Source: an uncultured Candidatus Saccharibacteria bacterium
GTDB taxonomy: Bacteria; Patescibacteriota; UBA1384; DTJR01
Length of the DNA stretch: 64,000 bases
NCBI GenBank assembly: GCA_964487045.1
Contig: CAZAOT010000003.1
Coordinates: 72,983-136,982, forward strand
Reading direction: 5' to 3'
Shown here: piece after piece, positions 40,728-61,327 of the stretch
How positions within the stretch are numbered: position 1 is the stretch's first letter
Layout: each line of letters opens with the position of its first letter
Made by a program: the position numbers and the translations under genes
The notes under the pieces: generated by a model
The model's input: only the letters and a program-made list of their open reading frames with translations
Told to the model about the DNA's origin: nothing
Databases searched by the model: none

Positions 40728-40736
40728 AGAAAAAAT

Positions 40737-41807
40737 ATGAAAAAACCAAAAATAGTTTATTATACGACACCGTATGGATACGGGCATGTTGTAAGAGCGA
40801 ACGCAATTATACAGGCGATTGGAGGTCGTGCTGACGTACATTTGATAGCGGCGATTGATATTATTTTTGATCTAGCTAAAAATATTCATTTTCATAAAAT
40901 TGATGAAATTCCTGGCTCGGTAAGGTTTGATTGTCCAATATATTATGAAGATAAAGAGGGGAAAACTCCAAGTACAAGTTCGGGAAAGCATATTGAAGAA
41001 TTTCGAACTCATACGCGAAAATTCGTTGATCTTCTTTGTGATATTAATCCCGATCTAGTCATTATTGATGTAACTCCGGAATTTGCGATTTTTGCGAAGA
41101 TATTGGGTTTTGAAAGCGCCCAGGTTTTAATCACCGGCAAAAGAGATGATTTACGAAATAAAGTGTCTTTGTGCAGCGTTGATCATGTGATAGTTCCATA
41201 CCCGGAAAATTTTGTTGATTTGTCTTACTTACCTGCTGAAGCTCGAAAAAATATATTTTATAGTGGCGCTTTCTCTAGGTTTGATGGCAAGCGAATTATT
41301 TCAAAAGATGATGCAAAAAAGAAACTTGGAATTCCAAGTGATAAGAAATTAGTTGTTTGTGCTTTTGGCCGAGGCGATTTAGGGGGCAAGGTAGTCAAAA
41401 AGGTTGAAGAAATCGCAAAATCTAAAGAATTTGCCGACTGCCAGTTTAAAATATTCGGCAATATTCCGAACGTTGATGAATATCTTAATGCAGCTGATTT
41501 TGCGATTTCAGGTGCTGGAGATAATACAGTGATGGAAAATTGTTATTATCGGGTTCCGATGATAATGATTCCGCTTAAAAGGCGTTATGATGAGCAGGTT
41601 CTCAAAGCTGAAGCGCTAGAGAAAATAGGAGCGGGAAAAATTATTTTAGAGGATGAAATAGATAGCAAGTTACAAGATGAATTACGTCGACTGATATCAG
41701 ACGAGGGGTATCGTGAAGAAGCTGCCAAAGCTGAAGGAAAGTTTGTTGACGGCCATGGAGCTGAGAGACTTGCTGATGAAATAATACGGTGGACTAAGCT
41801 TAGCTAA
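40737..41807 (+). CDS. GT28/GT1-type (MurG-like fold) glycosyltransferase
   Basis: C-terminal ADFAISGAGDNTVMEN..P.I.IP motif. Confidence 0.5.
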   Translation: MKKPKIVYYTTPYGYGHVVRANAIIQAIGGRADVHLIAAIDIIFDLAKNIHFHKIDEIPGSVRFDCPIYYEDKEGKTPSTSSGKHIEEFRTHTRKFVDLLCDINPDLVIIDVTPEFAIFAKILGFESAQVLITGKRDDLRNKVSLCSVDHVIVPYPENFVDLSYLPAEARKNIFYSGAFSRFDGKRIISKDDAKKKLGIPSDKKLVVCAFGRGDLGGKVVKKVEEIAKSKEFADCQFKIFGNIPNVDEYLNAADFAISGAGDNTVMENCYYRVPMIMIPLKRRYDEQVLKAEALEKIGAGKIILEDEIDSKLQDELRRLISDEGYREEAAKAEGKFVDGHGAERLADEIIRWTKLS

Positions 41808-41901
41808 TAGTTGACTCTTGATTCAATTTGATGTATAGTAATTGCCTCGGTTAAAGTATATGATATTATCATAAATAGTTATTTTAACCTTCGGAGGAAG
41901 T

Positions 41902-42996
41902 ATGAATTATGCCGTTATAATGGCTGGTGGATCTGGTACAAGACTTTGGCCCATGAGCCGAAAACAGAAGCCTAAACAGCTTCATAATTTAGTTTCTGAT
42001 AAAACCCTTATTCAAGAAACATATAATAGATTGCTTAAGGCGTTACCCGAGGAAAATATCTATGTTTCTACGACTAGTTCATATGTAGATGAGATTAGAA
42101 AGCAGCTTCCTAAAATTCCGCGAGAAAATTTTATTATTGAGCCTTCTTCTCGCAATACTGGACCAGCGCTCGCCTATTTGGCAAAAGTTATTGCGATGAA
42201 GGACCCGGAGGCTATTATTGCCACTATTGCTTCTGATCATATAGTTAAAAATATTGATGTTTTCGCCAATACTGTCAAAACGGCTTTTGAAGCAGCTAAA
42301 AAATTTCCTGATCATTTGATTGCGGTTGGGATTAATCCTACTAAACCAGATACCGGACTGGGTTATATCAAAATGGGCTCGATGAAGGTAGAGATTAACG
42401 ATGAGAAGGTTTTTGAAGTCGATACGTTTGTAGAAAAACCAGATCACAAAACAGCGGAAAAGTATTTACAGAGCTGGGAATATTTATGGAATGGTGCTTA
42501 TTATTTCTTCTCGGCCAAATCGATGCTCGGATGGATAAAGAAGTATCGTCCAGAGATGCTCAAGACAATCGAAGAGATCGGCGAGCTTATAGCGCAGGGT
42601 GCTAATGGTACTACGCAAACTAAGATTAAGTCCCTTTATGAGTCACTCGAAAATGAACAATTCGAGAACGCAATTATCGAGCAGGAAGATTTCACTAAAG
42701 TCTTAGTTATTCCTGCAGATCTTGGCTGGTCCGATATTGGCAACTGGGGAACTCTTCACGATGTATTAACTGAAACATATGGAAGTGAGATGATTTCGAG
42801 GGGTTATCATATAGATGTTGATTCGAAAGGTTGCTTGATTTATGGTGGTGAAAAAATGGTTGCTACCCTTGGACTAGAGAATATTATTGTTATTGATACT
42901 CCTGATGTAATGCTGATTGCAGACAAGAGAAGGGCTCAGGACGTTAAAAAGTTACTAGAAAAACTTAAAGACGAAGGTAAGCACTTATATTTGTAA
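41902..42996 (+). CDS. Mannose-1-phosphate guanylyltransferase-type sugar nucleotidyltransferase
   Basis: AVIMAGGSGTRLWP N-terminus. Confidence 0.65.
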   Translation: MNYAVIMAGGSGTRLWPMSRKQKPKQLHNLVSDKTLIQETYNRLLKALPEENIYVSTTSSYVDEIRKQLPKIPRENFIIEPSSRNTGPALAYLAKVIAMKDPEAIIATIASDHIVKNIDVFANTVKTAFEAAKKFPDHLIAVGINPTKPDTGLGYIKMGSMKVEINDEKVFEVDTFVEKPDHKTAEKYLQSWEYLWNGAYYFFSAKSMLGWIKKYRPEMLKTIEEIGELIAQGANGTTQTKIKSLYESLENEQFENAIIEQEDFTKVLVIPADLGWSDIGNWGTLHDVLTETYGSEMISRGYHIDVDSKGCLIYGGEKMVATLGLENIIVIDTPDVMLIADKRRAQDVKKLLEKLKDEGKHLYL

Positions 42997-42997
42997 G

Positions 42998-43864
42998 ATG
43001 AAGATTCTTGTTCACCGAGTCCCGCTATGCGTAAAAAATGACAAGTTAGTTGAAAGCGGTGAATTGAACTCTCCAGAGTTTGATTTTAAGGGTCATTTTG
43101 CGAAAGAGACGATTGTCACTCTTGGTAGGTTTATGGTTTGCTACAAAGCCAAACCTTGGATGATTAATGATCTCATGATTATCGATGGTGACAAGGAGTA
43201 TGTAAAAAGTCCATCCGAGCTTGATGAGGAAGACTCAAATATTTTGAATTCTATTATTAATATTGCTATTGCGGAATTATCTAGTAATTCACAGATTAGC
43301 AAGATCGTCGTCGGAGCCAATATTAATCCCCTTCCTGAGAAAGAAGATCATGAATCGATCTGGCGTCTTCATGTGCATGTTTGTGGTTTGACAAAGGGTG
43401 AAGTCGAAAAAATGGAGATTTTAGACGAAGAAACAAATATTTATGAAGATGAAATAATCGAGCAATTTAAAAAAGAAATCGCCCAGCTCGATGGTTTTGA
43501 AGAATATGCCTATGGGGCAAGAAAAGATTTGGAAAATATAAAAGATGGTAATTTTATGGATGAAATTAAGTACATAGATATCAAGGTTAAAGAAATACTT
43601 TCTAAATTTGTAAGTAAATTTTCAGTAATTTCTTATTCTTTTTCTATAATAATAGAAGACGACCGGGCAAGTATGTACGTTTCCCCTAAGTCCAGAGATG
43701 GACGAGGGGTGCTTGAAGCAGTTGGAATTATACTTGATCGAGAAGAAAATCTTGAAATTGATAAAGATTTTATTGATGGAAGGAATAAATTTTTGAAAAG
43801 AGTGCAGGACAAACTAATTCAAATAGATGGCGCCAAAATTGGAAAGCTAAAATTGGAGGAATAA
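42998..43864 (+). CDS. Hypothetical protein (possible HIT-like HVHV motif)
   Basis: ORF only. Confidence 0.35.
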   Translation: MKILVHRVPLCVKNDKLVESGELNSPEFDFKGHFAKETIVTLGRFMVCYKAKPWMINDLMIIDGDKEYVKSPSELDEEDSNILNSIINIAIAELSSNSQISKIVVGANINPLPEKEDHESIWRLHVHVCGLTKGEVEKMEILDEETNIYEDEIIEQFKKEIAQLDGFEEYAYGARKDLENIKDGNFMDEIKYIDIKVKEILSKFVSKFSVISYSFSIIIEDDRASMYVSPKSRDGRGVLEAVGIILDREENLEIDKDFIDGRNKFLKRVQDKLIQIDGAKIGKLKLEE

Positions 43865-45756
43865 TGAAAAGCAGTGAAAATCTTATAAATATTGTTAAGA
43901 AACTTGGCCGAAGAGGAGAAGAAGTAATTCCAGTTGGCGAGGATCTTACTGACGTTTTTGGTAGGAGACTGAAATTCGAAGGGCAGGCAATTGATCTTGA
44001 GAAGAACCAGTTGAACAAGGCGGCGCAAGATTTGCTCAAAGAGCTTCAAACTGAGGGCTCGGAGATAGAGAAAGTTCTTAGAGGACAAGTAATGTGGTAT
44101 GACGTTCGGTCTTCGGTTTGGAAAGAGCATCCTGAACTTTCTGCTCTTATGGCACTTGCCTACGCTAAAGTCTTGATTGAAAGAACTGGAAAAACTACTG
44201 GTCATACGCTTAATATCGCGGTTGATTGTTACAAGAAGCATTATGAGTCAATGTCGGTGTTTGCGGATACAATTATTAGAACTGGAATCGTACGAGATGG
44301 TGGTGGCGTGATTTATTGGGGCGTTCAAAATGGAGGGTCTATTAGAAATGTTGCTCAGGCAGAGCGAGCATTTACTGGTGAAAATGGAAACTGGATTTTT
44401 GGAACAATGAGTCATAGAGCCGAGGATTATGTCGGTGCTAAATTTGGAATGCAGGGCAAGGTTTTTTGCGGTCCTGATCTAATGAATGATTTATATGGAA
44501 AAATAATTTCTGGAGACTTTCCTGAATTAATTGAGATAGCATCTCCTGAAGAATATGCTGTTACGGTTGGTGATTTAACTGCAAATAATATTGATATTGT
44601 TGAGGACTTGGTCAGAGCTAGAACTGGTACGAAAAAGCCGAAAGAAGAAATTCTTGCTGGTATGAAGGTTGGTATGAATATGTGCGGTAGCCCAGTTGGC
44701 AAAAACCTACTTGATATTCTCAAGGCGTTTGGAGCGGATGTAGTAGCTATGAATGATGTTTTGAATGAGAATTATTCAACTGCTAATATTGTTGACCCAA
44801 ATGAACATGAATCTGAAGCGATGGAGGATATGAAAGAAAAAGCTAAAGAAAATGGAAGAATCTATCTAGCGCTTGACCCAGACGGAGATAGGGGGACTGT
44901 GATTGCGCTTGATTCAAATGGTAAGCCAGAGTCGTTGACAGGTACTGAGCTACTTCTTCTGGCGACTGAGAATCTTGCTACTTATAATCCAAATAAACTA
45001 CAGGCGGACGTTATCTACGACATGAGAACTGGTATTTCAATCTCTATGCTCCAAGAAGCACTCACTAAAGCTGGATTTCCGATAAAGACTCTCGCGGCCG
45101 AACCTGGATATCCATTCTTTATGGAAATGATGGGAAATAACGAAGGGGCAGTTATAGCTGTTGAGAATACTAGCCATCAATTTCTTACGCCGATGACCAA
45201 TCCAATCTGGGGTGCACCAAAATATTATCCTGGGGTTCAAGGTGGAGACGATGGTGCAATCTTCTTGGTTTATATTCTCTCGCTTTGTCATGAAAAGTGG
45301 GAAGGAAGAAATCCGATTGAACAACTTGAGTTCTTGAGAGAGAAGTATAAAATGCCGAAAACTTTGATCCGGGAGTTCAAACCGACAGTGGATAAAAAAG
45401 ATGCTATGAGAAAATATGATCTTGCTGAGGCGATGTGCAACATTGTAAATGATGAGATCGATGGTAGTAAATATCAGATCGATACTATGAATAGTGGAGT
45501 AAGGTTAACCGATCATAGCAAGCAAGCGATGGTTCTTATCAGATACTCTAACACCGGTCCATCGTTTACCGCTTCAGGAGAAGCGGTGAGCAAGGAGGAT
45601 AGTGATTTCATGTTCTCTTTAGGTGGGGCGATTATGGCCAAAGCTGTCGCAAAAGTAAAAAAAGAAAAAGGTGACTTTGAATTTGACTTTGCTAACTATA
45701 GCGAATTCGGTAATATCGATGAAGCTAAGTACAATAAAATAATTAGCGAGGTATAA
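43864..45756 (+). CDS. Divergent alpha-D-phosphohexomutase-like protein
   Basis: GTMSHR (phosphoserine loop-like), LDPDGDRG metal loop, IRYSNTGPS phosphate-binding-like motif. Confidence 0.45.
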   Translation: MKSSENLINIVKKLGRRGEEVIPVGEDLTDVFGRRLKFEGQAIDLEKNQLNKAAQDLLKELQTEGSEIEKVLRGQVMWYDVRSSVWKEHPELSALMALAYAKVLIERTGKTTGHTLNIAVDCYKKHYESMSVFADTIIRTGIVRDGGGVIYWGVQNGGSIRNVAQAERAFTGENGNWIFGTMSHRAEDYVGAKFGMQGKVFCGPDLMNDLYGKIISGDFPELIEIASPEEYAVTVGDLTANNIDIVEDLVRARTGTKKPKEEILAGMKVGMNMCGSPVGKNLLDILKAFGADVVAMNDVLNENYSTANIVDPNEHESEAMEDMKEKAKENGRIYLALDPDGDRGTVIALDSNGKPESLTGTELLLLATENLATYNPNKLQADVIYDMRTGISISMLQEALTKAGFPIKTLAAEPGYPFFMEMMGNNEGAVIAVENTSHQFLTPMTNPIWGAPKYYPGVQGGDDGAIFLVYILSLCHEKWEGRNPIEQLEFLREKYKMPKTLIREFKPTVDKKDAMRKYDLAEAMCNIVNDEIDGSKYQIDTMNSGVRLTDHSKQAMVLIRYSNTGPSFTASGEAVSKEDSDFMFSLGGAIMAKAVAKVKKEKGDFEFDFANYSEFGNIDEAKYNKIISEV

Positions 45757-45758
45757 CT

Positions 45759-46394
45759 GTGGGTAAGACGAAAGTATTTATAGATCTTGACGATACGTTG
45801 ATTGACACCGCTCAGATCAAGCATGATATTTTTGGCAAAATCGCTCTTATGGGTGTGCCTATGGCAGAAATAGCGTCAAGCTACAGCGAAGCGCGCAAAC
45901 AATTCGGCGCTGACTATCTTAAGCCTTTTGCTGAGTCATTTCAGGAATTTGGGATTGATGGCGAGATTTTGTACAATGGTCTGCAGCAAATGATTCTGCA
46001 ACATATGGATAAATATTTACTAGAAGATCGTCTTGTGTGGCTAGATCGGTTTCAGAGTGATCAATATGAAATGTACTTGCTCACTCACGGTAACCCTGAT
46101 ATTCAGGAGAGAAAGGTTCAGGGCCTTCATTTAGAAAATCTCTTTGAAGATAGAGTGATTTATGTGCAAGACAATAAGGCCGACTACATAAAGAAACTTC
46201 TAGGGCCTGGTGAGAAATTTATTTTGGTTGATGATAAAAAGGAAGTACTGGATGAAATTATCAATGAATACCCAGAACAAGCCGAAGTTTGGGAAGCAAC
46301 CAAAAGCGTAGACGATCAAGGCGAAATTACATACAATGATCCAGAAGGGTATTATAGTCCGCTTGATATTGCCCGAGAAGGAAAAAATTATTAA
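45759..46394 (+). CDS. HAD-superfamily hydrolase
   Basis: VFIDLDDTLIDT motif I. Confidence 0.55.
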   Translation: MGKTKVFIDLDDTLIDTAQIKHDIFGKIALMGVPMAEIASSYSEARKQFGADYLKPFAESFQEFGIDGEILYNGLQQMILQHMDKYLLEDRLVWLDRFQSDQYEMYLLTHGNPDIQERKVQGLHLENLFEDRVIYVQDNKADYIKKLLGPGEKFILVDDKKEVLDEIINEYPEQAEVWEATKSVDDQGEITYNDPEGYYSPLDIAREGKNY

Positions 46395-46406
46395 TAAGGA
46401 GTCTTT

Positions 46407-47330
46407 ATGGCAAAAATTTTAGTTACCGGTGGAGCTGGCTTTATTGGTTCGAACTTTTCCAATCTAATGAGTCAAAAAGGGCATGAAGTTGTTGCTTTTG
46501 ATAACCTTTCTCTTGGAAAAAAGGACAATCTTTCCGAAAAAGTAAAATTTGTTGAAGGTGACGTTAATAAAGAAGAAGATCTGCTTAGTGCTGGAGAAGA
46601 TTTTGATTATATTATTCATTTAGCTGCTTCCTCCTCTGCTCCAATGTTCGCCGAAAATATGTACTGGGCTTATCAGAATAATGTTTCGGGTCATGTCAGG
46701 GTCATGCAATATGCGAAAAAAATTGGTGTTAAGAAAATGTTGTTTGCCTCTACTTCTTCAATTTACGGCAACAATCCGACACCACTTACCGAAGACCAAG
46801 AAGTGATTCCTCCGAACCATTATTCGGTGACAAAGTTTGCTCAAGAAGGTGCTTCCCGTGTTTTTTCTAAAGCGGAGGGCTTAGAGATAATTGCTTTCAG
46901 ATTTATGTCGATTTACGGGTTAAACGAAGGTCACAAAACATATTTCGCTAATCTAGTTTCGCAATTTATTTGGTCAATGGCTAAAGACGAAGAGCCGGTT
47001 CTGTATGGTGATGGTACGCAGGAGAGGGATTTTACTAACGTAAAAGACGTTTGCCAGGGTATTGAAAAGGCGATGGAAACAGAAAAAAAATACGGATTTA
47101 CAATCTTCAATATCGGTACGCACAAGGCGATTAATCTATTGGAATTAGTTGAAATGATCAATAAGGCGCTTGGCAAAAATATTAAGCCGAAACTTATCCC
47201 GAATCCAGTTAAGGAAGGTTATGTGAAAAGCCAACTTGCCAGTATTGATAAGATATCAAGTGAACTTGGGTATGAACCGACGGTAGAACTCGAGGACGGA
47301 ATTAAAGAAATTGTTGATAACCTAAAGTAA
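46407..47330 (+). CDS. NAD-dependent nucleotide-sugar epimerase/dehydratase (GalE-like)
   Basis: ILVTGGAGFIGSN; YxxxK region. Confidence 0.7.
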   Translation: MAKILVTGGAGFIGSNFSNLMSQKGHEVVAFDNLSLGKKDNLSEKVKFVEGDVNKEEDLLSAGEDFDYIIHLAASSSAPMFAENMYWAYQNNVSGHVRVMQYAKKIGVKKMLFASTSSIYGNNPTPLTEDQEVIPPNHYSVTKFAQEGASRVFSKAEGLEIIAFRFMSIYGLNEGHKTYFANLVSQFIWSMAKDEEPVLYGDGTQERDFTNVKDVCQGIEKAMETEKKYGFTIFNIGTHKAINLLELVEMINKALGKNIKPKLIPNPVKEGYVKSQLASIDKISSELGYEPTVELEDGIKEIVDNLK

Positions 47331-47387: not shown

Positions 47388-48710
47388 TTGCGTAAAGGCA
47401 AAACAAGAGTTCTCTTTCTAGCTTTGGTTGGGGTTGTTGTTTTAGTAAGTCTTTTTGCAATTTTTAGGAAGCAGATCTTTGCTGACACCATCACGATGCC
47501 AAGCTGGATTGATAGCGCCACGGTAACTAAATATAATACCTGGACTGCAGGCCAGAAACTTTCTTTTGACAGATGTGCGTCGAATGGTGTTAATACTAAA
47601 TCCACCCTTACTCCTCAGGAGATCAATCAGTTCGGTTCGAGTTCGGTAGCTTTTAATATTAGACCAATCGTAAATGTATCTTCGAGTAGTCCTTACTGGC
47701 CATGGTATCAGAGTAGCTATAGGTTAATTGTCACACCTCTAAAATACGATCTTCAAGCCGATGGATCACGAACTCTGAAAATGAGGCTAACGCTTGGTAA
47801 TCCTGGCACTAGTCCTGTGATTGTTGCTAATCCAGAAGCTCGCTATTATTTCTGGTCTTTTAGCAACTCAGTTCCAAAAGTTGGCAATGTAATATTTACA
47901 AGGGGAGTTGATTATACCTATACATTGTTGCCTGGCGAATATGTGAGTCAAGATACGCTTGAACTCAGCGGAGTAAAGGATCCGGCTTACTGGGGAATCG
48001 AGTTCTCGAATATGAAATATACCTTATCTGGAACGACGCCAAATTTTGAGCAGCCAATTTGGGATCCAGTGGCGCAAAAAACTGATGCTACGCTTAGTTG
48101 TATAATCAATCCTCTTCCCTTAGCAGGGTTGGTTCCAGGCTCAATTCCGTCAGTAACTCCTTCGACAGAAGTTCCTGGTAGTAGAGCGGTTACCTTTAGA
48201 AGAGGATTTTCGACTTTTGGTAATAGTGGAATGACGAACGGCACAATGTTTAAAGACGCTGGATTATTTCTCTATGCTTTTGATGGACCAACTAATTCTT
48301 GGAAAATTTATCCTGGGGGACCGGAGATAAATACTGATTTAAAAAAAGGCTATTACGTTTATAATCCTAGTGCTGAGAAAACTATTAGGTTCGGTTTCGG
48401 TAATCCTACAGTGACTACTTTTGAGCTCACCAAGGGTTGGAATATGCTTTGGACTGCGATGGACAAAAGATTAAGCGATTTAAATTTATTTTATAACGGT
48501 CAGACTTTGTCCGCTCAAGATATGATTAATCTAAGGACGATTAGCAATAACATATTTATCATTCAGGATGATACTGCCACTACGGCTTGTACCTACTTTA
48601 AACTTCTGTCTAATACCGATACTCAAGCGACATGCTCTGGTGGATCTGCAGGACTCGGAAGTTCTAGCAAGATTCCAGGTGGTAAAGCATTCTGGATTTA
48701 TGTCAATTAA
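47388..48710 (+). CDS. Anchored/secreted protein, paralog 1 of a tandem pair, unknown family
   Basis: N-terminal TM; conserved PSWIDSAT..KSTLT N-module and LTKGWNML..C..YFKLL..C..KAFW C-module shared with 48787..50217. Confidence 0.5.
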   Translation: MRKGKTRVLFLALVGVVVLVSLFAIFRKQIFADTITMPSWIDSATVTKYNTWTAGQKLSFDRCASNGVNTKSTLTPQEINQFGSSSVAFNIRPIVNVSSSSPYWPWYQSSYRLIVTPLKYDLQADGSRTLKMRLTLGNPGTSPVIVANPEARYYFWSFSNSVPKVGNVIFTRGVDYTYTLLPGEYVSQDTLELSGVKDPAYWGIEFSNMKYTLSGTTPNFEQPIWDPVAQKTDATLSCIINPLPLAGLVPGSIPSVTPSTEVPGSRAVTFRRGFSTFGNSGMTNGTMFKDAGLFLYAFDGPTNSWKIYPGGPEINTDLKKGYYVYNPSAEKTIRFGFGNPTVTTFELTKGWNMLWTAMDKRLSDLNLFYNGQTLSAQDMINLRTISNNIFIIQDDTATTACTYFKLLSNTDTQATCSGGSAGLGSSSKIPGGKAFWIYVN

Positions 48711-48786
48711 TTTTTTTAAATTGTTTTTGATTGTTAAAAAAGTAAAATTGTAATAGTAGTTTGATTACTTATCATTAGGAGGATGT

Positions 48787-50217
48787 GTGAAGACAAAAAA
48801 TAACCAAAAGCTTAAATTAATAGTATTTTTGGTGCTAGTTATTGGTCTTGCAGCACTTGCAGGTTTCTATATATATAAAAGGACGGTATCTGCTGATACT
48901 ACTCTTCCTTCTTGGATAGATTCGGCTACAGCTACTAAATATAATAGCGTTTGGTCGACTGCTCAGAAACAGCAGTTTCTTGGTTGTATGTCGAATGGTT
49001 ATACTACCAAAAGCACTTTGACTGCCGCCGAACAGTCGCAGTTTGGTGCAAATTCGGTAGTATTTGAGGGTCAGGCAGCTCCTCCAAATGACCCTGCTTA
49101 TCAGATACCATTCTATCAAAGTAAATATCGAATAGTTGTAACTCCCCAAATGTATACAACTAATAATGGATCTACGAGTGCTAAATTTAAATTTAATGTT
49201 TCTAATCCTACTTCAAGCACCTACCCAATGAGAAAGACTTCGATCAGGTTAAGCTTTTGGCATGTCGAGCAATTCGACTATTATGTCGATGGAGTCACTC
49301 CGCATTATTGGGCTGCCGATCAGGTATTATATTTCCCGAATCAGGACAATCAATCATCGCTTGCGCCTGGCCAACAGATGACAATTGAATCAAACGTCTT
49401 AAATATGACTAATGAAAGTTTTTATACCGTTAGCTTTGCTACAGAGATGTATGGTGTTAATACCTCAACCGGGGCAATTACATGGACCGGAGGGGGAACG
49501 GCAAGCTCGGTAAATTGTATAGTAAACCCAATTCCTATTGCATCGCTTAGGACTATGGCTTTTGCCTCTGTCACGCCGACTCAAACTACAACAAGCACCG
49601 CCACTTCCACGGTGACAGCAAGTGCAACTAGGACGGTTGCGCCTCCAACTGTAACGCCAACTCCTTCGGTCACATCAACTACCGCGGGACCGGGAGACTC
49701 TACTTATAATTTTCCTCGTGGTTTTAGTGTATTTGGAGCTACAGCTAATTTCCCATCAAGTCGGTTTGCTGATAATGGGTTATATGTCTACAAGTTTGAT
49801 GGTGTCTCGAACAGCTGGGTATATTGGCCGGGTATGACTCAATTTAATTTAGAAACAGGCAAGGGTTATTATGCCTATGCTGCTTCAGCGAAGTCCGCAA
49901 GCCTTCCTCTAGCCGCTGTTCCTACGGGTACGTATTCGCTGACAAAGGGTTGGAATATGCTTTATAACATTGGGGATAAATCGCTTAGTTCATTGCAGCT
50001 TAGCTATAACGGGGTAACCAAGTCAGCCCAGGAGATGATAAATAGTGGCACGATCCATTCAAGAGTTTTTATTATTGATAACGATCAAGCTACTCAGGCT
50101 TGCAGCTACTTTAAGCTACTTGGGTCAACTAACTCTGTTGCTAATTGTAGCTCAAACACTTTAGCGGTAACGGCTACTTTAAATTCCGCCAAGGCCTTCT
50201 GGGTTTACGTATTCTGA
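48787..50217 (+). CDS. Anchored/secreted protein, paralog 2, with a Thr/Ser/Pro-rich insert (TPTQTTTSTATSTVTASATRTVAPPTVTPTPSVTSTT)
   Basis: As above. Confidence 0.5.
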   Translation: MKTKNNQKLKLIVFLVLVIGLAALAGFYIYKRTVSADTTLPSWIDSATATKYNSVWSTAQKQQFLGCMSNGYTTKSTLTAAEQSQFGANSVVFEGQAAPPNDPAYQIPFYQSKYRIVVTPQMYTTNNGSTSAKFKFNVSNPTSSTYPMRKTSIRLSFWHVEQFDYYVDGVTPHYWAADQVLYFPNQDNQSSLAPGQQMTIESNVLNMTNESFYTVSFATEMYGVNTSTGAITWTGGGTASSVNCIVNPIPIASLRTMAFASVTPTQTTTSTATSTVTASATRTVAPPTVTPTPSVTSTTAGPGDSTYNFPRGFSVFGATANFPSSRFADNGLYVYKFDGVSNSWVYWPGMTQFNLETGKGYYAYAASAKSASLPLAAVPTGTYSLTKGWNMLYNIGDKSLSSLQLSYNGVTKSAQEMINSGTIHSRVFIIDNDQATQACSYFKLLGSTNSVANCSSNTLAVTATLNSAKAFWVYVF

Positions 50218-50259
50218 TCTATAGGTTGATAATTGTCAGTTTTGAGCTAAAATCTTTTC

Positions 50260-52026
50260 GTGGCTAAGAAAAAGAAGAAAACTACAAGGCAGCGCTCACC
50301 CTTATTGACACCAAGGGTTCGGCTATTGGTTATCTATGCGGTAATTGGTGTAATTTTTTTATCTTTAGCTGTCTGGCTAACCTGGCCTCTTAGTAAGTTC
50401 ATTAATTCTGCTATCATCTCCCAACCCGACTTTACTGACGGACCGTTTTTTATTTGGAATCTGTGGTGGGTGAAAAAAGCGATTTTGAATCTATCAAATC
50501 CATTCTTTAGTGATTTTGTATATTTTCCCTCGCGATCTAATCTTGCTCTTCATACCCTTACATTTACTTCAGGGATAATCTATTTGCCACTTAGTCTTTT
50601 TTTCAGGCCTCTTACTTCGTTGAATATAATTCAGCTCTTGTCTTTTATAGCGAGTGGGCTAGGGATTGTTTTATTTTCGAGTTATCTAACTAAACCAAAA
50701 TCAATATTGGAATATTTAAGCCTAGTGCCAGGGGCCATTATTTTCGCTTTCTCCCCTTTCGTTTTTTCTCACCTTCTGGCGGGACACTATAACTTAAGTA
50801 TGATTTGGCCGATTCCATTTGTCGCATATTTCTTGATAAGGACACTAGATGAGAAAAAATATACGCCGGCAATAGGCTTAGGGATATTTGCTTCAGCTCT
50901 CGCCTATCTTGACTTGCAACTGATATTCTTTGCTGGCATTGTATGTCTGCCGATTTTTTTCTCACACATGATTTTTAAGTGGAGAGAATTTTTTACCAAG
51001 CAATCGGTGCTCAGTTTGGCTCTAGCTGTTTTAGTTTTTGCAATTATTTTTGCTCTTCCATATGGATATCTGATGAGCGAATTCTGGGGGACGAAAGATG
51101 CATTTTCTACATATAATAATGGCGATATAAAGATTTTATTTGGTTTTAATCCACTAAATCCACTATTTAAATATCAAAATTACAAACTTCTTCTTTCATT
51201 GATTGGATCATATCGCGAAAACACAATTTCAATCGGTTTTACTGGTCTATTTGTAACTTTAGGAGGGTTTGCGTTGTTTGCGCGGCAACATTGGAAACAG
51301 AAATTTATTTATTTTTTCGTTCTTATCGTTGGAATAGCTTTATCGCTTGGCCCCAACCTTCAATATAACAATCATGTTTATGAGCATATTAGATTGCCCT
51401 ATTATTATCTTCAAAATCTACCATTCTTTAATCTAGGTTTAGTGCCGAGCCGATTTATTTTAATCGCTTATTTTGCTCTAGCTGTGCTTGTGAGTTTGAG
51501 CATGTTCTCTGTCGTAAGATTTTTTCAAAACAAAAAATTGTTTATTCCGGCCATCTGCTTACTTGTGATTGTTCCAATGTTTATTTTAGTCGAAAATTAT
51601 TCTGGCAAAATGATGATTGATCCACTTTATGATATCAAGCAGGTTCAAGAAATTGCACGAGAGGAAGGCGATTTTACTATCTTGCCTTATGAAGCCGGTC
51701 AAAGAGACGCGTATATTCAGGTTCTGCATCAAAAGAAAGTAGTGACGGGATTCTTGGGTAGGAGGATACATGATTATTATATGTCCAAGTATGGTAGCGT
51801 TTATCCAATAAACAAATTTTCTAGAGGACTCGCAGATGAGCTTAATCAATCTGACACTAAGCAATCAGTTGTTTCGGTATTCAGCGAATACAAGATAAGG
51901 TATATAGTTATTGAGAAAAATTTTAAGGATGATCAAGAGCTTGCGAAATTGAGGAGCTATTTAAAAAATATTCAGGCAGATTTGACTTATGAATCTAGCC
52001 AAGTGATGATTTACAAGGTTAATTAA
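50260..52026 (+). CDS. Large polytopic membrane protein with C-terminal soluble domain, possibly GT-C-fold glycosyltransferase-like
   Basis: More than 10 predicted TM helices by eye; no firm motif. Confidence 0.3.
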   Translation: MAKKKKKTTRQRSPLLTPRVRLLVIYAVIGVIFLSLAVWLTWPLSKFINSAIISQPDFTDGPFFIWNLWWVKKAILNLSNPFFSDFVYFPSRSNLALHTLTFTSGIIYLPLSLFFRPLTSLNIIQLLSFIASGLGIVLFSSYLTKPKSILEYLSLVPGAIIFAFSPFVFSHLLAGHYNLSMIWPIPFVAYFLIRTLDEKKYTPAIGLGIFASALAYLDLQLIFFAGIVCLPIFFSHMIFKWREFFTKQSVLSLALAVLVFAIIFALPYGYLMSEFWGTKDAFSTYNNGDIKILFGFNPLNPLFKYQNYKLLLSLIGSYRENTISIGFTGLFVTLGGFALFARQHWKQKFIYFFVLIVGIALSLGPNLQYNNHVYEHIRLPYYYLQNLPFFNLGLVPSRFILIAYFALAVLVSLSMFSVVRFFQNKKLFIPAICLLVIVPMFILVENYSGKMMIDPLYDIKQVQEIAREEGDFTILPYEAGQRDAYIQVLHQKKVVTGFLGRRIHDYYMSKYGSVYPINKFSRGLADELNQSDTKQSVVSVFSEYKIRYIVIEKNFKDDQELAKLRSYLKNIQADLTYESSQVMIYKVN

Positions 52027-55501: not shown

Positions 55502-55996
55502 ATGAGGTCTTCAAAAAAAGTAGGATCTGAGTTATCGAGAGTAAAACTTTATCTTTTAATTTTTCTTGGTCTAGCCATTATGTTTGGTAGTGGAATATTA
55601 TTTTGGCAGATTCAGAAACAGAACTCAGCTTCTTCGAATACCGAGAATTTAGCGTTAAAAAATCAAATAGATGATCTAAATAAAAGGATCGACGAGTTAA
55701 ATAAAACCATTTTAGAAGCAAAAAATGCTTCACCGATAGTGGAGACTCGCTCTTACACAAAATCTTCTGGTCAGGTAGCTGGCGAACAATCGAGTAGGGT
55801 TAATGGAAAAATAAATATAAATTCTGCCAGTAGCTCTGAGCTTGACTCCCTGCCTGGAATAGGCGCTTCTTATGCTGCGCGAATTATCGAATATCGTGAA
55901 TCAAATGGCGGATTTAAGTCAATTGATGAGATAAAAAATATTAAAGGTATCGGGGATAAGACTTTTGATAAATTAAAAGATCTAATTAGCGTTTGA
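55502..55996 (+). CDS. comEA: ComEA-like DNA receptor (TM plus tandem helix-hairpin-helix)
   Basis: ININSASSSELDSLPGIGASYAARIIEYRESNGGFKSIDEIKNIKGIG. Confidence 0.7.
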   Translation: MRSSKKVGSELSRVKLYLLIFLGLAIMFGSGILFWQIQKQNSASSNTENLALKNQIDDLNKRIDELNKTILEAKNASPIVETRSYTKSSGQVAGEQSSRVNGKININSASSSELDSLPGIGASYAARIIEYRESNGGFKSIDEIKNIKGIGDKTFDKLKDLISV

Positions 55997-56109
55997 TAGT
56001 GCCTTGGGGCTATAGCTAGAATGCCTTCTTTGATTTATAATGTGATAGTGATAAGTAAGGAGGGAAAATTAGAAATAATTTTCTAGTTATTGTATTAGGT
56101 CTATCTTTT

Positions 56110-59100
56110 GTGGCATTTACTTCTTGTATTTCTGTTTCTCAAGCCGCAGCCGATGAAGATATAACAATTTCTTCAAATACTACCTGGGTTGCTGGGACAT
56201 ATACTTATAGAGATATCACTGTCACCAACAATGCAACATTAACTCTAGGTGGAACTTATACAACCGATACCAACGGTACGGGTGTAATTATTAATGCTAG
56301 GAGCGTTACTGTAAATTCAGGCTCTACAATCTCCGCTACCGGTCAGGGTTATGCTGCTAATGCTGGAATTGGTAAGGGAACGAATGTTAGTGCTTATGGC
56401 GGCGGCGGCAGCCACGCTAACAATGGTGGAAATCATGCTATTGGCTCTGGTGGTGGTACTACTTTATACGGCTCAACAACTGCTCCGACAACACTCGGCT
56501 CTGGCGGCGGAAATGGAGGAGCAGGTGGAGGGGCGATTCAGCTTAATTTATCTGGAAATTTATCTCTTGCTGGGAATATATACGCAAAAGGAAATAATGG
56601 TGGCACTAATACTGGTTCAGGTGCTGGCGGTTCAATTTATATAAGCGCTGTCGATTTATCTGGCGCTGGAAATATTAGTGTTAATGGGGGTAGCTCAGGA
56701 TCAGGTGGCGGCGGCGGTAGCGGCGGAAGAATTATGATTTATCACACAGGAACAAATTCTTTAACTGATGGTAACATTACAGCCGCTGGCGGAACTGGTT
56801 ACGCATCTGGCGGAGTTGGTTCTAAGCTGATCTATAACAAGACAACTAAAGACGTAACAATTGCTTCTGATATTACAATCGATTCGACAATGGGAATTGA
56901 TGAAAATGGAGACCCATCAACAGACGGAATATTTCACTTTAATGATTTAACTATTAATAATAATGCAAACCTATATTCAAAAGCTTATTACACTACTGAC
57001 ACAAACGGAACAGGTATTGAGCTAAGTTTGACTGGCGACTTGAATGTTGCCTCTGGGGCAAAAATTAATGGTATCGGTAAGGGTTATGCCTATCAGGCAG
57101 GGGACGGAAAGCCTACTGGAGTAAGCAATACTTATGGCGGAGGTGGAGCTCACGGGGGTAATGGTGGACGTGGCGATCCTGCTGGAAGCGGCGGAACAAA
57201 ATACGATTCAACCCTTTTTCCTGTAAAACCTGGGAGTGGAGGTTACACTACTCGTGGAGGTGCAGGAGGAAGTGCAGTTAAGATCACGGCAAGTGCGATA
57301 ACGGTAGATGGCTCGATCGACCAATCTGGCGCGGTTGTTGTGGCGAATGCTTCAAATAACGGTGGTGGTGGTGCTGGTGGATCGGTATATGTTGTTGCTG
57401 ACTCGCTTTCTGGTGCTGGTACGATCAAAGCTGATGGGACAAATGGTTATGGATATAGTGGCGGTGGCGGTGGAGGAAGGATTGCGATTTATGCTGACAC
57501 TTCCGGATTTAATACTAACAATATAACTGCAGCCAAGGGTATCAAGGGTGGATCTGGTCTTTCTGCTGATGGAGATGTCGGGACTATCTTTTTATACGAT
57601 ACTGCATCCGGAAATGTTTCAGCTTCAAGCGATGTAACTTTTAATGCGGATCAAGGTGTGAGTCGTGATGGTTCAGCTAGAACTGACGGAGTTTTTTATT
57701 TTAATAATTTGACTGTTACGAATAATGCTACTGTGACAATTGGTGGTTACTATACCGATGACACTAATGGTCGCGGAGTAACTATAAATCTCGATGGAAG
57801 CTTAACGATAGATTCTGGATCAACTGTAACAGCAAGCGGACAGGGATACACGGCTGGAGCTGGTCCGGGCAAGGGTTCGGGAGGTTCTTCTACTTCTGGA
57901 TCAGGTGGTAGCTATGGAGGTGTCGGCGGCCAGTCGTACAACAACAACTTAGCCCCAGCGGTTTACGGTACCACCGAAGCTAATTTTCCTTATAAACTTG
58001 GTTCAAGTGGCGGCGCTGGTGATCAGGTCACGGGCCCTGCAGGCGGAGGGGCGGTGACATTCCGTGTTCTGGGAAATATTGTAAATAACGGAACTATTTC
58101 TGCTGACGGCTCAGTTGCTAAGGCCAGTCCAATTCCGGGTTGGTACACTGGGGGTGGATCTGGAGGAAGCGTCTTTCTTGTTTGTAACACCCTATCTGGC
58201 AGTGGAACGATAACCGCTAAAGGTGGCAATGGTGCAGGAACTGATTATGGATCTGGTGGCGGTGGAGGAGGAAGAATATCAGTTGTTTATTCAACTAGTC
58301 AAAATATCGCACTAGGAAACTTCTCAGCATCAGGCGGCACTGGCGGTGGCGGAGTATCTAACCGAAATGGAGCAGAAGGATCTGTTAACATTACGCAGAA
58401 AGTGTTGCCTGCCGCTGAATTTACTTTAAAAAATCCTAATAATGATTCAACCCAATTCACTAACACAGAGAACGTAGAAATTGTGCCGACTGATGAGACT
58501 GTCGAAAAATATAAGGAAGCCGCGTCAGTAAATGAATTAGTCCCTGCGTTTTACGCCGACGGTTGGGCAAATATCACGGATGGTAAGGATGTTGGAGCTT
58601 CAGAGGGGGCAAAAACTGTTAGAGCATGGTTTAAAGATTCAAATGAATTAATCTCGAGCTCTGTGGGAAGCGCTACAATTACGCTTGATAAAACTCAACC
58701 AGATATTACGATCTCAAATAATAATCAGTCAGTTTCAAATGCTTCAACTACAGTTCAGCTTGATTTATCCGATAATACTTCCGGAATAGATTACCTATTG
58801 ATCAATGGTCAAAGAGTTGAGGTTAGTGCTCTATCCATTGTTTCCAGGGTTCAACCCTCAAGTATAAAAGCCTATGCTGATAATATTACTTACGAGGCAA
58901 CCGTCTCTCTTGCTGAAGGAGAAAATTCAATTCCAATTGTTGTATATGATAAAGCTGGCAATTCTACTCAAACTACATTTATCGCGACAAGGACGACCCC
59001 AGTTGTCCCTTCGCCTACGCCAACTCCAGTTAACTCCAGCTTGCCTTCTAGCTCGGCTACCTCGACAGCATCTTCATCCGGTGAATCTTCATCAAGCGTA

Positions 59101-59367
59101 ACTGCCAGTGGCTCATCTACAGATTCGTCTGAAACCACAGAAGCTGAAGCTGGTGAAGGACTTATGTCATCTTTAGCCGAAAACATACAATCAGCGACAG
59201 AAAAAATTGCTGATGCCCTCAACCCATTTTCAAATAAATCTAGCATTGATGAGTCTGAAAATTCTGGATTGGAAAAATCTCCTTATTCTTCTCTAAAAAT
59301 CATTATTCTCATCATTCTTATGTTAACTGTTATCTTTAGCTACTTTGTCTTGAAGAATAAAAAGTAG
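56110..59367 (+). CDS. 1085-aa Gly-rich surface protein: N-terminal signal, three ~210-aa beta-helix-like tandem repeats, S/T-rich stalk, C-terminal TM anchor
   Basis: Repeats start at ~res 15, 250 and 495 (…TNNATLTLGGTYTTDTNGTGV… pattern); C-terminus LKIIILIILMLTVIFSYFVLKNKK. Confidence 0.55.
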   Translation: MAFTSCISVSQAAADEDITISSNTTWVAGTYTYRDITVTNNATLTLGGTYTTDTNGTGVIINARSVTVNSGSTISATGQGYAANAGIGKGTNVSAYGGGGSHANNGGNHAIGSGGGTTLYGSTTAPTTLGSGGGNGGAGGGAIQLNLSGNLSLAGNIYAKGNNGGTNTGSGAGGSIYISAVDLSGAGNISVNGGSSGSGGGGGSGGRIMIYHTGTNSLTDGNITAAGGTGYASGGVGSKLIYNKTTKDVTIASDITIDSTMGIDENGDPSTDGIFHFNDLTINNNANLYSKAYYTTDTNGTGIELSLTGDLNVASGAKINGIGKGYAYQAGDGKPTGVSNTYGGGGAHGGNGGRGDPAGSGGTKYDSTLFPVKPGSGGYTTRGGAGGSAVKITASAITVDGSIDQSGAVVVANASNNGGGGAGGSVYVVADSLSGAGTIKADGTNGYGYSGGGGGGRIAIYADTSGFNTNNITAAKGIKGGSGLSADGDVGTIFLYDTASGNVSASSDVTFNADQGVSRDGSARTDGVFYFNNLTVTNNATVTIGGYYTDDTNGRGVTINLDGSLTIDSGSTVTASGQGYTAGAGPGKGSGGSSTSGSGGSYGGVGGQSYNNNLAPAVYGTTEANFPYKLGSSGGAGDQVTGPAGGGAVTFRVLGNIVNNGTISADGSVAKASPIPGWYTGGGSGGSVFLVCNTLSGSGTITAKGGNGAGTDYGSGGGGGGRISVVYSTSQNIALGNFSASGGTGGGGVSNRNGAEGSVNITQKVLPAAEFTLKNPNNDSTQFTNTENVEIVPTDETVEKYKEAASVNELVPAFYADGWANITDGKDVGASEGAKTVRAWFKDSNELISSSVGSATITLDKTQPDITISNNNQSVSNASTTVQLDLSDNTSGIDYLLINGQRVEVSALSIVSRVQPSSIKAYADNITYEATVSLAEGENSIPIVVYDKAGNSTQTTFIATRTTPVVPSPTPTPVNSSLPSSSATSTASSSGESSSSVTASGSSTDSSETTEAEAGEGLMSSLAENIQSATEKIADALNPFSNKSSIDESENSGLEKSPYSSLKIIILIILMLTVIFSYFVLKNKK

Positions 59368-59431
59368 TTTTTCTTATTTATTTTACGCAATAATCTGCTA
59401 AAATTATATTTCTAATTGTTTAGGAGAATAT

Positions 59432-60631
59432 ATGGAAATATTAAGAAACATGTGGCGAAGAAAATTCAGAACACTTTTGACGATTTTCGGGATTGTTATA
59501 GGAATTTTTGCTTTTACGGTGATGGGATCGATGGCGCTCAAGCTAAACAAAATGATAGATGGTGGAAAAAAATACGTAACCGGGCAGATTACCATTTCTC
59601 CTAAGGGTTCCGCTGGATATGGCGCTGCAACAGGAACACTGCCAATAGATACTATTAACAAAATTTCTCAAATAGATGGTGTGGATAAAATTGCTCCAAT
59701 GGCTTCCCTGTTGGTAGAAGAGCCAGACTTAGACAATCCGTCGATGAATTTTGGTGAGCCACCAACTATTTATGGTGAGGATCTTGAGTCTGGGTTTAAA
59801 AATCGCAACTGGGCGAATATGTCAATGAAATCTGGAAAGATGCTTGATAATAGTTCATCTGACAATGAGATTGCGATTGGGATAACTATCGCAACTGACA
59901 AAAAGCTTAATGTGGGTGATTCATATACAATCAGAGGCCGTGAATTTAAAGTAATCGGAATTGTGGATAAGACCATGACGGGTCCAGATAGTTATGTATT
60001 TATGAATATAACTCCTGCCAGGGAAATGCTGATTGAGTCAAGCCCATTTATGAAATCTCTTTACCAGGGCGGAAGGCTAAAGATGGAAGATGTTAACTCG
60101 ATGGCGGGTGTTTCTTGGAAGGACGGTTATGACTCCGAAAAGGTAGCCAATGACATAAAGGATCAGTTTGGTAAGGACGTAAGTGTTATGTCGCCGGTTA
60201 AAATGGGTGAAATGATAGATAAAGCATCTAGCACAATGAATGCAATTATACTTGGGTCAGCAATGCTGGCACTTATAGTTGGGCTTTTCTCGATCGTCAA
60301 CACGATGGTAATGAGTATTTCAGAAAGAACTAAGGAAATTGGTATCAAGAAAGCGATGGGTGCTTCACCTGCTTCGATTGCCTGGGAATATACGATGGAG
60401 GCCGGAGTTATAGGTTTAGTTGGAGGAGCGATCGGCATGGGCTTCGGAGTACTGGCTGCGACACTAGTTAATAATAAAATGGCTGAAAAAGGCGCAGAGA
60501 TATTTCTACTCGAGTCAAACTTTCTAATCGCTGTTGTAGCATTTTCGTTCGTGATAGGAATAATCGCAGGTGTGATTCCAGCAATAAGAGCTTCTCGGTT
60601 AAAGGTTGTAGAAGCAATTAGAGAACTCTAA
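59432..60631 (+). CDS. MacB/FtsX-type ABC transporter permease with large extracytoplasmic domain
   Basis: TM1, ~230-aa periplasmic segment, three C-terminal TMs, FtsX-like motifs. Confidence 0.65.
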   Translation: MEILRNMWRRKFRTLLTIFGIVIGIFAFTVMGSMALKLNKMIDGGKKYVTGQITISPKGSAGYGAATGTLPIDTINKISQIDGVDKIAPMASLLVEEPDLDNPSMNFGEPPTIYGEDLESGFKNRNWANMSMKSGKMLDNSSSDNEIAIGITIATDKKLNVGDSYTIRGREFKVIGIVDKTMTGPDSYVFMNITPAREMLIESSPFMKSLYQGGRLKMEDVNSMAGVSWKDGYDSEKVANDIKDQFGKDVSVMSPVKMGEMIDKASSTMNAIILGSAMLALIVGLFSIVNTMVMSISERTKEIGIKKAMGASPASIAWEYTMEAGVIGLVGGAIGMGFGVLAATLVNNKMAEKGAEIFLLESNFLIAVVAFSFVIGIIAGVIPAIRASRLKVVEAIREL

Positions 60632-60643
60632 ATAAGGAATATT

Positions 60644-61327
60644 ATGAATAAAATAATTGTTCAAGCAAAAAAGATTGAAAAGACCTACAAGATGTCTAAA
60701 AAGAATATCGTTAAGGCCCTTGATGGGGTTGACCTGGAAGTTTTAGAAGGAGATTTTTCGGCAATAATTGGTCCTTCTGGCTGTGGCAAGTCAACATTGA
60801 TGCATATCCTAGGACTCCTCGATCGACCCGACTCTGGTTCTCTGATTATCGACGGAGTTGATATGACTAAGCTACCAGAGAAAAAAGCTTATAAAATGAG
60901 AGCTAAAAAAATAGGATTTATTTTTCAAGGATTTAATCTTATCCCTACTCTGACAGCTCTTGAAAATGTTGTCTTGGCCGGAAGATATGGTGGTCTGAGA
61001 AAACGAGAAAGAACTAGCCGAGCCAAGGAGCTTTTAAAGATGCTGGGCTTAGAAGGTAGAATGAACCATAAGCCCAATGAGCTTTCAGGTGGGCAGCAAC
61101 AGAGAGTAGCTATTGCTAGGGCGCTTATGAATGACCCTGCTATTATTCTGGCTGATGAGCCTACAGGCGAACTTGATACCAAGACGTCGTTAGAGATTAT
61201 GGATATTCTAAAAAAATTAAATAAAGAAAAAAATAAGACATTCGTGATTGTTACTCACAATATGGAAGTAGCTGAATCTTGCAAAAAAATCATACGCTTG
61301 AGGGACGGCAAGAACGTCAGCAAATAA
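60644..61327 (+). CDS. ABC transporter ATP-binding protein (MacB/LolD-like)
   Basis: GPSGCGKST, LSGGQQQRVAIARAL, ILADEPTG. Confidence 0.8.
   Translation: MNKIIVQAKKIEKTYKMSKKNIVKALDGVDLEVLEGDFSAIIGPSGCGKSTLMHILGLLDRPDSGSLIIDGVDMTKLPEKKAYKMRAKKIGFIFQGFNLIPTLTALENVVLAGRYGGLRKRERTSRAKELLKMLGLEGRMNHKPNELSGGQQQRVAIARALMNDPAIILADEPTGELDTKTSLEIMDILKKLNKEKNKTFVIVTHNMEVAESCKKIIRLRDGKNVSK

What the first reader, a model, noticed from the sequence alone, without database searches (positions are those of the whole stretch)
56110..61327. Giant Gly-rich beta-helix repeat surface protein with C-terminal anchor next to a MacB/FtsX ABC pair
The 1085-aa protein has a signal peptide and three ~210-aa tandem repeats rich in G/T/N with the periodic motifs NNATLT.GG.YTTDTNGTGV and GQGY.A.AG.GKG, consistent with a parallel beta-helix. 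These are followed by an Ig-like region, an S/T-rich stalk and a single C-terminal TM helix, so it is tail-anchored. It is immediately followed by a MacB-type permease with a large periplasmic domain and its ATPase. By established knowledge, MacB-type pumps export or extract envelope proteins and toxins. Inference. The pair may handle this adhesin-like protein or a pilus-like structure.
Basis: partly seen in the sequence, partly recalled or inferred. Interest (0 to 1): 0.5.

Follow-up and report, generated by a model that had tools for sequence, protein, structure and literature searches.

The report
Beta-helix surface protein beside unrelated ABC pump
This is a membrane-anchored, rod-like surface protein, probably an adhesin, of a Berkelbacteria-type ultrasmall bacterium; the ABC transporter next to it is a separately conserved pump that is a neighbour only in this genome, so the proposed partnership is not supported.

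The parts
55993..56022 (+). sigma-70-like promoter match (TTGATA-18-TAGAAT, 10/12) upstream of the big gene
   Evidence: a consensus match only
56057..56064 (+). Shine-Dalgarno AAGGAGGG preceding the proposed ATT start
   Evidence: same layout in L005
56068..59367 (+). Corrected CDS of the surface protein ('BIG'), 1099 aa with an ATT start.
56068..56151 (+). Signal peptide MRNNFLVIVLGLSFVAFTSCISVSQAAA with an SPase I-type AxA site conserved across homologues
   Evidence: (helix 2-20)
56155..56853 (+). Gly-rich beta-helix module 1 (aa 30-262)
56854..57612 (+). Gly-rich beta-helix module 2 (aa 263-515). Modelled alone: pLDDT 86.5, pTM 0.89.
57613..58404 (+). Gly-rich beta-helix module 3 (aa 516-779)
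58405..58701 (+). Family-specific beta-sandwich (Ig/fn3-like) domain 1, with the conserved motifs LKNPNNxSTxYTNT and KTVRAW(L/F)KD
58702..58992 (+). Ig-like domain 2, with weak sub-threshold hits to Glucodextran_B, Big_13, Cadherin-like and DUF7743
58993..59289 (+). Disordered S/T/E/P-rich stalk (pLDDT below 50)
59290..59364 (+). C-terminal transmembrane helix plus cytoplasmic KNKK tail; no LPXTG motif
59368..59431 (+). Permease leader. It is homologous to the ComEA-permease spacer of L018 (50/64 matches). It contains a promoter-like site at 59382-59410 and a GGAG Shine-Dalgarno. No terminator-like site was found in this spacer.
59432..60631 (+). MacB-type (type VII ABC) permease, 399 aa: TM1, a roughly 225-aa extracytoplasmic domain, then 3 C-terminal TM helices. 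Not part of the surface-protein system.
60644..61327 (+). Cognate ABC ATPase, 227 aa (LolD/MacB-NBD-like)

Best explanation
The 56068-59367 gene encodes a surface protein of a Berkelbacteria-like (Patescibacteria/CPR) bacterium. It is exported by Sec, processed by signal peptidase I and anchored as a type I membrane protein. Three homologous ~250-aa right-handed beta-helix modules, each with a conserved Gly-rich excursion, form a rigid distal rod. Two Ig-like domains and a ~100-residue S/T/E-rich stalk, possibly glycosylated, carry the rod away from the membrane. A C-terminal TM helix with a KNKK stop-transfer tail holds it in the membrane. Its most likely role is adhesion to a host cell or another surface, by analogy with the adhesins that share its fold. 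The permease and ATPase downstream form an independent, widely conserved MacB-type ABC system with its own leader. That system is most likely an extracytoplasmic detoxification or efflux (mechanotransmission) pump. Its adjacency to the surface protein is an accident of two cassettes occupying the same syntenic slot after comEA.

Shown: the repeats, the predicted fold, the topology elements, the homologue distribution and the non-conservation of adjacency. Inferred: the adhesive function, glycosylation, the pump's substrate class and the separate transcription of the two units.
For: - Repeats: pairwise E 1e-11 to 1e-23; the three-module architecture is conserved in 27 full-length homologues.
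- C-terminal region: Foldseek matches fn3, cadherin, SiiE and SraP tandem beta-sandwiches.
- Signal peptide and TM helix.
- Independence of the pump:
  - 2 of 16 contexts are adjacent.
  - L005 has BIG without the pump and L018 has the pump without BIG, both in the same ROK-RuvA-RecG-ComEA synteny.
  - The permease leader is conserved (score 26 against shuffles at 4.2 +/- 3.6).
  - More than 120 permease clusters are at least 61% identical, against about 33 BIG-family clusters.
  - L017 and L020 show response regulator, histidine kinase, a MacB-like pair, then the orthologous pair.
- Established knowledge: known MacB substrates run from about 0.5 kDa macrolides to about 10 kDa proteins and are handled from the extracytoplasmic side (PMC5985334).
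- Epibiotic Saccharibacteria need multiple protein adhesins for growth on their hosts (PMC10633639).
Against: - Two independent adjacencies plus one case at 4.8 kb among 16 contexts is somewhat more than a naive chance expectation. A loose association between MacB-like pairs and large surface-protein genes therefore cannot be excluded.
- No terminator was detected between the big gene and the permease, so read-through co-transcription in this genome is possible.
- The structure is a prediction from a 28-sequence alignment.
Confidence: 0.7

Rival explanations
1. One reading: the MacB-type ABC pair is a dedicated partner of the big protein. It would extract, release, assemble or mechanically regulate the protein or a pilus-like fibre built from it, in the way LolCDE handles lipoproteins or FtsEX handles hydrolase activators.
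For: The genes are immediately adjacent and on the same strand in the window, with a 64-nt spacer and no terminator-like site in it. A different MacB-like pair lies immediately upstream of the homologue P0011 (L001, L002, L007), and another lies 4.8 kb from P0007. Type VII ABC systems are known to act on extracytoplasmic proteins (PMC5985334).
Against: Adjacency is absent in 13 of 16 contexts, and in one more the nearest pair is 4.8 kb away. The adjacent pair in L001 is only 25% (permease) and 44% (ATPase) identical to the window's pair, whereas the big proteins are 59% identical. L005 and L018 show each gene without the other at the same syntenic site. The permease leader is conserved independently of the upstream gene. 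Orthologues of the pair are far more widespread than the big protein. The big protein has a conserved SPase I site and no conserved lipobox.
Confidence: 0.07
2. The beta-helix modules are enzymatic, for example a polysaccharide lyase, hydrolase or depolymerase displayed on the surface. The protein would then digest host or environmental glycans rather than adhere.
Against: The top structural matches are all non-enzymatic adhesin or secretion domains. No Pfam or NCBIfam enzyme family matches, even at E <= 10. The invariant columns are almost all Gly plus a few structural Y, P, L, S and R residues, with no conserved acidic or basic constellation. The module is reiterated 5-12 times in giant proteins, which is typical of structural repeats.
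Confidence: 0.1
3. The protein is a structural envelope-coat component, S-layer-like or a spacer fibril, with no specific ligand.
For: It has a membrane anchor, a long stalk and rigid repeats. It lies next to a large glycosyltransferase and sugar-nucleotide cluster and other secreted proteins.
Against: The family is patchy. It is absent from the syntenic relative L018 at this site, was found in only 3 GTDB species representatives, and is present as two paralogues in some genomes. This pattern is more typical of accessory adhesins than of a core coat protein.
Confidence: 0.13

Closest known systems
TpsA two-partner-secretion adhesins (HMW1, EtpA, FHA, HxuA) and autotransporter passenger domains (IcsA, pertactin, Ag43, TibA)
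   Different: There is no TPS secretion domain and no C-terminal beta-barrel; the organism is a CPR bacterium. Anchoring is by a C-terminal TM helix after Sec export. Only about 145 of 253 module residues superpose. A conserved ~65-residue Gly-rich excursion has no counterpart. Sequence identity is 16-23% with no sequence-level match.
Tapirins of Caldicellulosiruptor and Awp adhesins of Candida glabrata
   Different: These have a single beta-helix domain rather than three tandem modules. The anchoring differs (secreted or pilus-associated for tapirins; GPI and cell wall for Awp). No sequence similarity was detected.
Giant multi-module 'beta strand repeat-containing' or Ig-domain proteins of Planctomycetota, Verrucomicrobiota and Bdellovibrio; the N-terminal domain of myxobacterial AgmC (NCBIfam NF047640)
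   Same: They carry the same ~250-aa Gly-rich module by sequence. Seven of 15 modules hit positions 206-406 of AgmC_N.
   Different: Those proteins carry 5-12 modules in 1,500-7,000 aa and have other accessory domains. The window protein is a minimal 3-module, TM-anchored form. The AgmC_N score (26-28 bits) is far below the 275-bit cutoff.
MacB / type VII ABC transporters (MacB, S. pneumoniae Spr0694-0695, YtrF, YknYZ, HrtAB, LolCDE, FtsEX), for the neighbouring pair
   Same: MacB_PCD and FtsX domains, four TM segments and a separate LolD-like ATPase. The closest solved sequences are MacB, the permease chain of PDB entry 5xu1, YtrF and LolF.
   Different: The pair scores below the curated cutoffs of every named equivalog (MacB, LolC/E, FtsX). 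No membrane-fusion adaptor gene is adjacent. The substrate is unknown.

Membership tests
Right-handed parallel beta-helix surface adhesins (fold class) | Beta-helical solenoid fold of the repeat region | tested here: met
Type V secretion (TpsA / autotransporter) | N-terminal TPS domain recognised by a TpsB partner, or a C-terminal beta-barrel translocator | tested here: not met
   The C-terminus is a single TM helix plus KNKK. No ESPR, TPS or autotransporter family was hit in Pfam or NCBIfam.
Sortase-anchored LPXTG surface proteins | LPXTG-like motif immediately before the C-terminal hydrophobic segment and basic tail | tested here: not met
   The sequence before the TM helix is ...ENSGLEKSPYSSLK. 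No motif is conserved across all 28 homologues, although a subset carries GGCLLGNCP.
Bacterial lipoproteins (possible Lol/MacB-type substrates) | Conserved lipobox [LVI][ASTVI][GAS]C at the end of the signal peptide | tested here: not met
   The window has AFTSC, but the Cys and its context are not conserved. The conserved feature is an AxA|A(D/E) SPase I site.
AgmC N-terminal domain (NCBIfam NF047640) | Score at or above the curated cutoff (275 bits) over the 412-position model | tested here: not met
   25.9-27.8 bits, covering only model positions 206-406. This indicates partial module homology, not membership.
MacB-type (type VII) ABC transporter superfamily (neighbouring pair) | MacB_PCD extracytoplasmic domain between TM1 and TM2, a C-terminal FtsX domain, four TM helices and a cognate ABC ATPase | tested here: met
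   PF12704 70 bits (cutoff 27), PF02687 71.6 bits (cutoff 25.5), PF00005 122 bits; four hydrophobic segments; PDB sequence hits to MacB and YtrF.
LolCDE / FtsEX / MacB equivalogs (neighbouring pair) | Score at or above the NCBIfam equivalog cutoffs | tested here: not met
   lolCE 56.6 bits against 362; FtsX_Gpos 55.9 against 225; MacB 78 against 966; LolD 240.9 against 307.75; FtsE 198.8 against 264.85.
   2 of 16 contexts are adjacent, with non-orthologous pairs. L005 and L018 each show one gene without the other at the same site. All four orthologous-pump contexts lack the big protein.

The most novel reading that the evidence does not exclude
The ~250-aa Gly-rich beta-helix module, with its conserved GxGY...GPGKG...YGGxGG...LGSGGG excursion and GGGGGGR-I rungs, may define a very large domain family that is essentially uncurated. 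It matches at least 14,000 50%-identity clusters, has no Pfam model, and is touched only by the C-terminal half of NCBIfam AgmC_N. Under this reading the minimal three-module, membrane-anchored Berkelbacteria form is a host-attachment adhesin of these presumed episymbionts. The recurrent but non-orthologous proximity of MacB-like pairs to such surface-protein genes would then reflect a loose envelope-maintenance link.
Probability: 0.25. Interest if true: 0.45.

Novelty: new member of a known kind. Interest (0 to 1): 0.22.

Why it matters
Patescibacteria are thought to live attached to host cells, and cultivated Saccharibacteria need several protein adhesins for growth (PMC10633639). Nothing comparable is known for Berkelbacteria. 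This family gives a concrete, structurally well-predicted candidate for a surface attachment protein. It also points to a widespread repeat module that domain databases do not yet describe. The practical lessons are more modest. The gene is annotated with a truncated start, because an ATT start codon hides its signal peptide. The neighbouring ABC pump should not be annotated as its exporter.

Tried and rejected
- Pfam and NCBIfam scans of the whole protein and of each module, down to E = 10: no family covers the Gly-rich modules. Only weak AgmC_N, Glucodextran_B and Big_13 hits appeared.
- Profile search of PDB sequences: only spurious low-complexity hits to the stalk, plus a weak Ig-like hit.
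- afdb50 fold search: the library was not available.
- GTDB genome scan: only 3 loci. Metagenome scan: 7 loci. Both were limited by the pattern-based pre-filter.
- Lipoprotein reading (AFTSC lipobox, a Lol-like substrate): rejected because the lipobox is not conserved.
- Sortase/LPXTG anchoring: rejected because there is no motif.
- Target-site duplication or repeats flanking the big gene as a mobile cassette: the two spacers are not similar to each other, so there is no evidence for this.
- Literature searches for AgmC and for Berkelbacteria surface proteins returned nothing relevant.
- The listing of cluster members gave no accession or organism name for the exact protein.
Full report
**Observation**

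ORF listing shows a 1085-aa ORF at 56110-59367 (+), followed on the same strand by a 399-aa ORF (59432-60631) and a 227-aa ORF (60644-61327). The large protein is 18% Gly, 12.6% Ser, 10.8% Thr and 8% Asn. The three segments match each other at 41-42% identity with BLASTP E-values of 2.5e-23, 9e-19 and 2.6e-11. The repeats are therefore real, but each is 233-264 aa long rather than about 210.

**Start codon**

The GTG at 56110 is the first canonical start after the stop at 56056-58. It yields an N-terminus (MAFTSCISVSQAAA...) that is only the second half of a signal peptide. The in-frame upstream codons read G G K I R N N F L V I V L G L S F. An ATT at 56068 lies 4 nt after a GGAGG. In an alignment with 27 full-length homologues, every complete homologue has an M-(K/R)-hydrophobic-AxA signal peptide aligned to this extension. 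A 66-67%-identical relative (L005) has the same GGAGG-ATT arrangement, and its called gene is likewise truncated. I therefore place the start at 56068, giving 1099 aa. With a cleavable signal peptide and a C-terminal TM helix the protein is a type I membrane protein, not 'tail-anchored'.

**Architecture and fold**

An AlphaFold2 model built on the 28-sequence alignment has mean pLDDT 84 and pTM 0.72. It shows:
- a signal-peptide helix at residues 2-20;
- short-strand solenoid rungs through residues 30-779;
- two beta-sandwiches at about 780-975;
- a disordered region at 979-1075;
- a helix at 1075-1097.

The stalk is 29% Ser, 11% Thr and 10% Glu. The last 25 residues are a hydrophobic helix plus KNKK. 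No LPXTG motif is present. The lipobox-like AFTSC in the window protein is not conserved, whereas an AxA|A(D/E) SPase I site is conserved.

**Family**

The word-indexed search found the identical protein on a 232.8-kb NCBI contig. It also found about 33 full-length relatives of 1,020-1,180 aa. The few that carry names are labelled Candidatus Berkelbacteria or 'WS2'. More distant hits are to 1,100-1,900-aa proteins of Planctomycetota, Verrucomicrobiota and Bdellovibrio.

No Pfam family matches the modules, even at E <= 10, and no PDB sequence matches them. The only curated model touching them is NCBIfam AgmC_N, at 26-28 bits against a cutoff of 275. It is hit by 7 of 15 modules over model positions 206-406.

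A profile of the module was searched against 1.84 billion cluster representatives. It finds 14,089 proteins at E <= 1e-3 and 4,063 at E <= 1e-30. The best-scoring ones carry mostly 5-12 copies in proteins of 1,500-7,000 aa. The window protein is thus a small, three-module, membrane-anchored member of a very large but uncurated repeat family.

**The neighbouring ABC pair**

The permease has MacB_PCD and FtsX domains above the Pfam thresholds and four hydrophobic segments. Its closest solved sequences are MacB, the permease chain of PDB entry 5xu1, YtrF and LolF. The ATPase is LolD/MacB-NBD-like. Both score below every NCBIfam equivalog cutoff. The pair is therefore a generic type VII ABC system.

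**Test of the proposed coupling**

I examined 16 distinct genomic contexts of big-protein homologues.
- Immediate adjacency to an ABC pair occurs only in the window and in the P0011 lineage (L001, L002, L007). There the order is ATPase-permease-BIG. That permease is only 25% identical to the window's and the ATPase 44%, while the big proteins are 59% identical, so it is a paralogous pair.
- In L003/L010 a pair (26% identical) lies 4.8 kb away.
- No ABC ATPase lies within the available flanks, which are up to 10 kb, in L004/L009, L005, L006, L008, L011-L016, L021, L022, or around either of the two paralogues on L023.

Two syntenic relatives are the most telling.
- L005 reads ROK-RuvA-RecG-ComEA-BIG-(CAP)-NUDIX-DUF523, with no pump.
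- L018 reads ROK-RuvA-RecG-ComEA-permease-ATPase-...-glyoxalase-NUDIX, with no BIG. Its identities to the window are 52-85%, including permease 78% and ATPase 85%.

The 64-nt BIG-permease spacer of the window is homologous to the ComEA-permease spacer of L018. It has 50/64 matches and an alignment score of 26, against 4.2 +/- 3.6 for shuffles. It contains a promoter-like match. The permease therefore keeps its own leader regardless of the upstream gene.

Permease orthologues are abundant: more than 120 clusters are at least 61% identical. In L017 and L020 they sit in tandem with a second MacB-like pair, downstream of a response regulator and a histidine kinase. That layout is reminiscent of Gram-positive detoxification modules described in PMC5985334. 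The same review notes that MacB substrates range from about 0.5 to about 10 kDa and are taken from the extracytoplasmic side. That does not fit a 113-kDa membrane-anchored protein that already has Sec signals.

**Interpretation**

The best-supported reading is an accessory adhesin-like fibril anchored in the cytoplasmic membrane of a Berkelbacteria-type CPR bacterium. The ABC pump is adjacent by coincidence, because two independently gained or lost cassettes share the slot after comEA.

Adhesion itself is an inference from fold similarity and from the lifestyle of cultivated Patescibacteria (PMC10633639). An enzymatic or purely structural role cannot be excluded.

One caveat remains. Two immediate adjacencies among 16 contexts, involving non-orthologous MacB-like pairs, is somewhat more than a naive chance expectation. 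A loose clustering of envelope genes therefore remains possible, but it is not evidence of a dedicated partnership.

**Novelty and score**

Beta-helical, Ig-stalked, membrane-anchored surface proteins are a well-known kind, and this is a new, uncharacterised member. Two points are mildly interesting: the module is widespread yet absent from Pfam, and an ATT start hides the signal peptide from gene callers. Interest 0.22.

Noticed in passing
window 56056-56110; L005 7950-8000: The big gene appears to start at a non-canonical ATT codon 4 nt after GGAGG, and the same layout occurs in a 66-67%-identical relative. Public gene calls (P0001 at 1085 aa; P0004 starting MVCSF) cut the signal peptide in half.
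   Followed up: partly
window 59368-59431 vs L018 6929-7000: The permease's 5' leader is conserved (50/64 nt) whether the upstream gene is the big protein or comEA. This implies a discrete insertion or deletion of the 3.3-kb big gene exactly between the comEA stop and this leader. No flanking repeats were seen.
   Followed up: partly
alignment A1, about columns 1270-1285 (homologues P0003, P0010, P0014, P0016, P0022, P0025, P0027, P0028): Eight of 28 family members carry a conserved GGC(L/M)LGNCP motif immediately before the C-terminal TM helix. This could be a lineage-specific sorting or processing signal or a disulfide loop. The window protein lacks it.
   Followed up: no
window 47388-52026: Two paralogous secreted proteins (440 and 476 aa, 36% identical) are followed by a 588-aa protein with about 12 TM segments; the 476-aa one has an S/T/P-rich linker. 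None has a Pfam or NCBIfam hit. In syntenic relatives the membrane protein is conserved upstream of ROK-RuvA-RecG-ComEA in both L005 and L018, and the 476-aa secreted protein has a match in L018. The membrane protein might be a GT-C-like glycosyltransferase acting on S/T-rich surface proteins; this is speculative.
   Followed up: partly
window 35716-47330: A cluster of GT4 and GT28-like glycosyltransferases, DUF218 proteins, mannose-1-phosphate guanylyltransferase, a PGM/PMM-like protein, HAD hydrolases and an NAD-dependent epimerase. This is a cell-envelope glycan locus upstream of the surface-protein genes.
   Followed up: no
window 16450-17739 (+), overlapping 16849-17754 (-): A 429-aa ORF lies in a 55% GC island within a genome of about 38-40% GC. 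It has no Pfam hit and a long antisense ORF. It may be a horizontally acquired gene.
   Followed up: no
L023 1-1081 and 10001-13321; also the contig pair P0003/P0027: Some relatives carry two diverged paralogues of the big protein on one contig. On L023 (P0010 and P0025) they lie about 9 kb apart on opposite strands, with a heliorhodopsin gene between them.
   Followed up: partly
L017 3096-8886; L020 1362-9072: Orthologues of the window's ABC pair lie in tandem with a second MacB-like pair (447-453-aa permease), downstream of a response regulator and a histidine kinase. This suggests a regulated detoxification module in Patescibacteria.
   Followed up: partly
L021 8001-11249: In one lineage the big-protein gene sits between the secY-adk-map genes and the infA-rpsM-rpsK-rpsD-rpoA genes, that is, inside the conserved ribosomal-protein gene region. 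This underlines how mobile the gene's location is.
   Followed up: no
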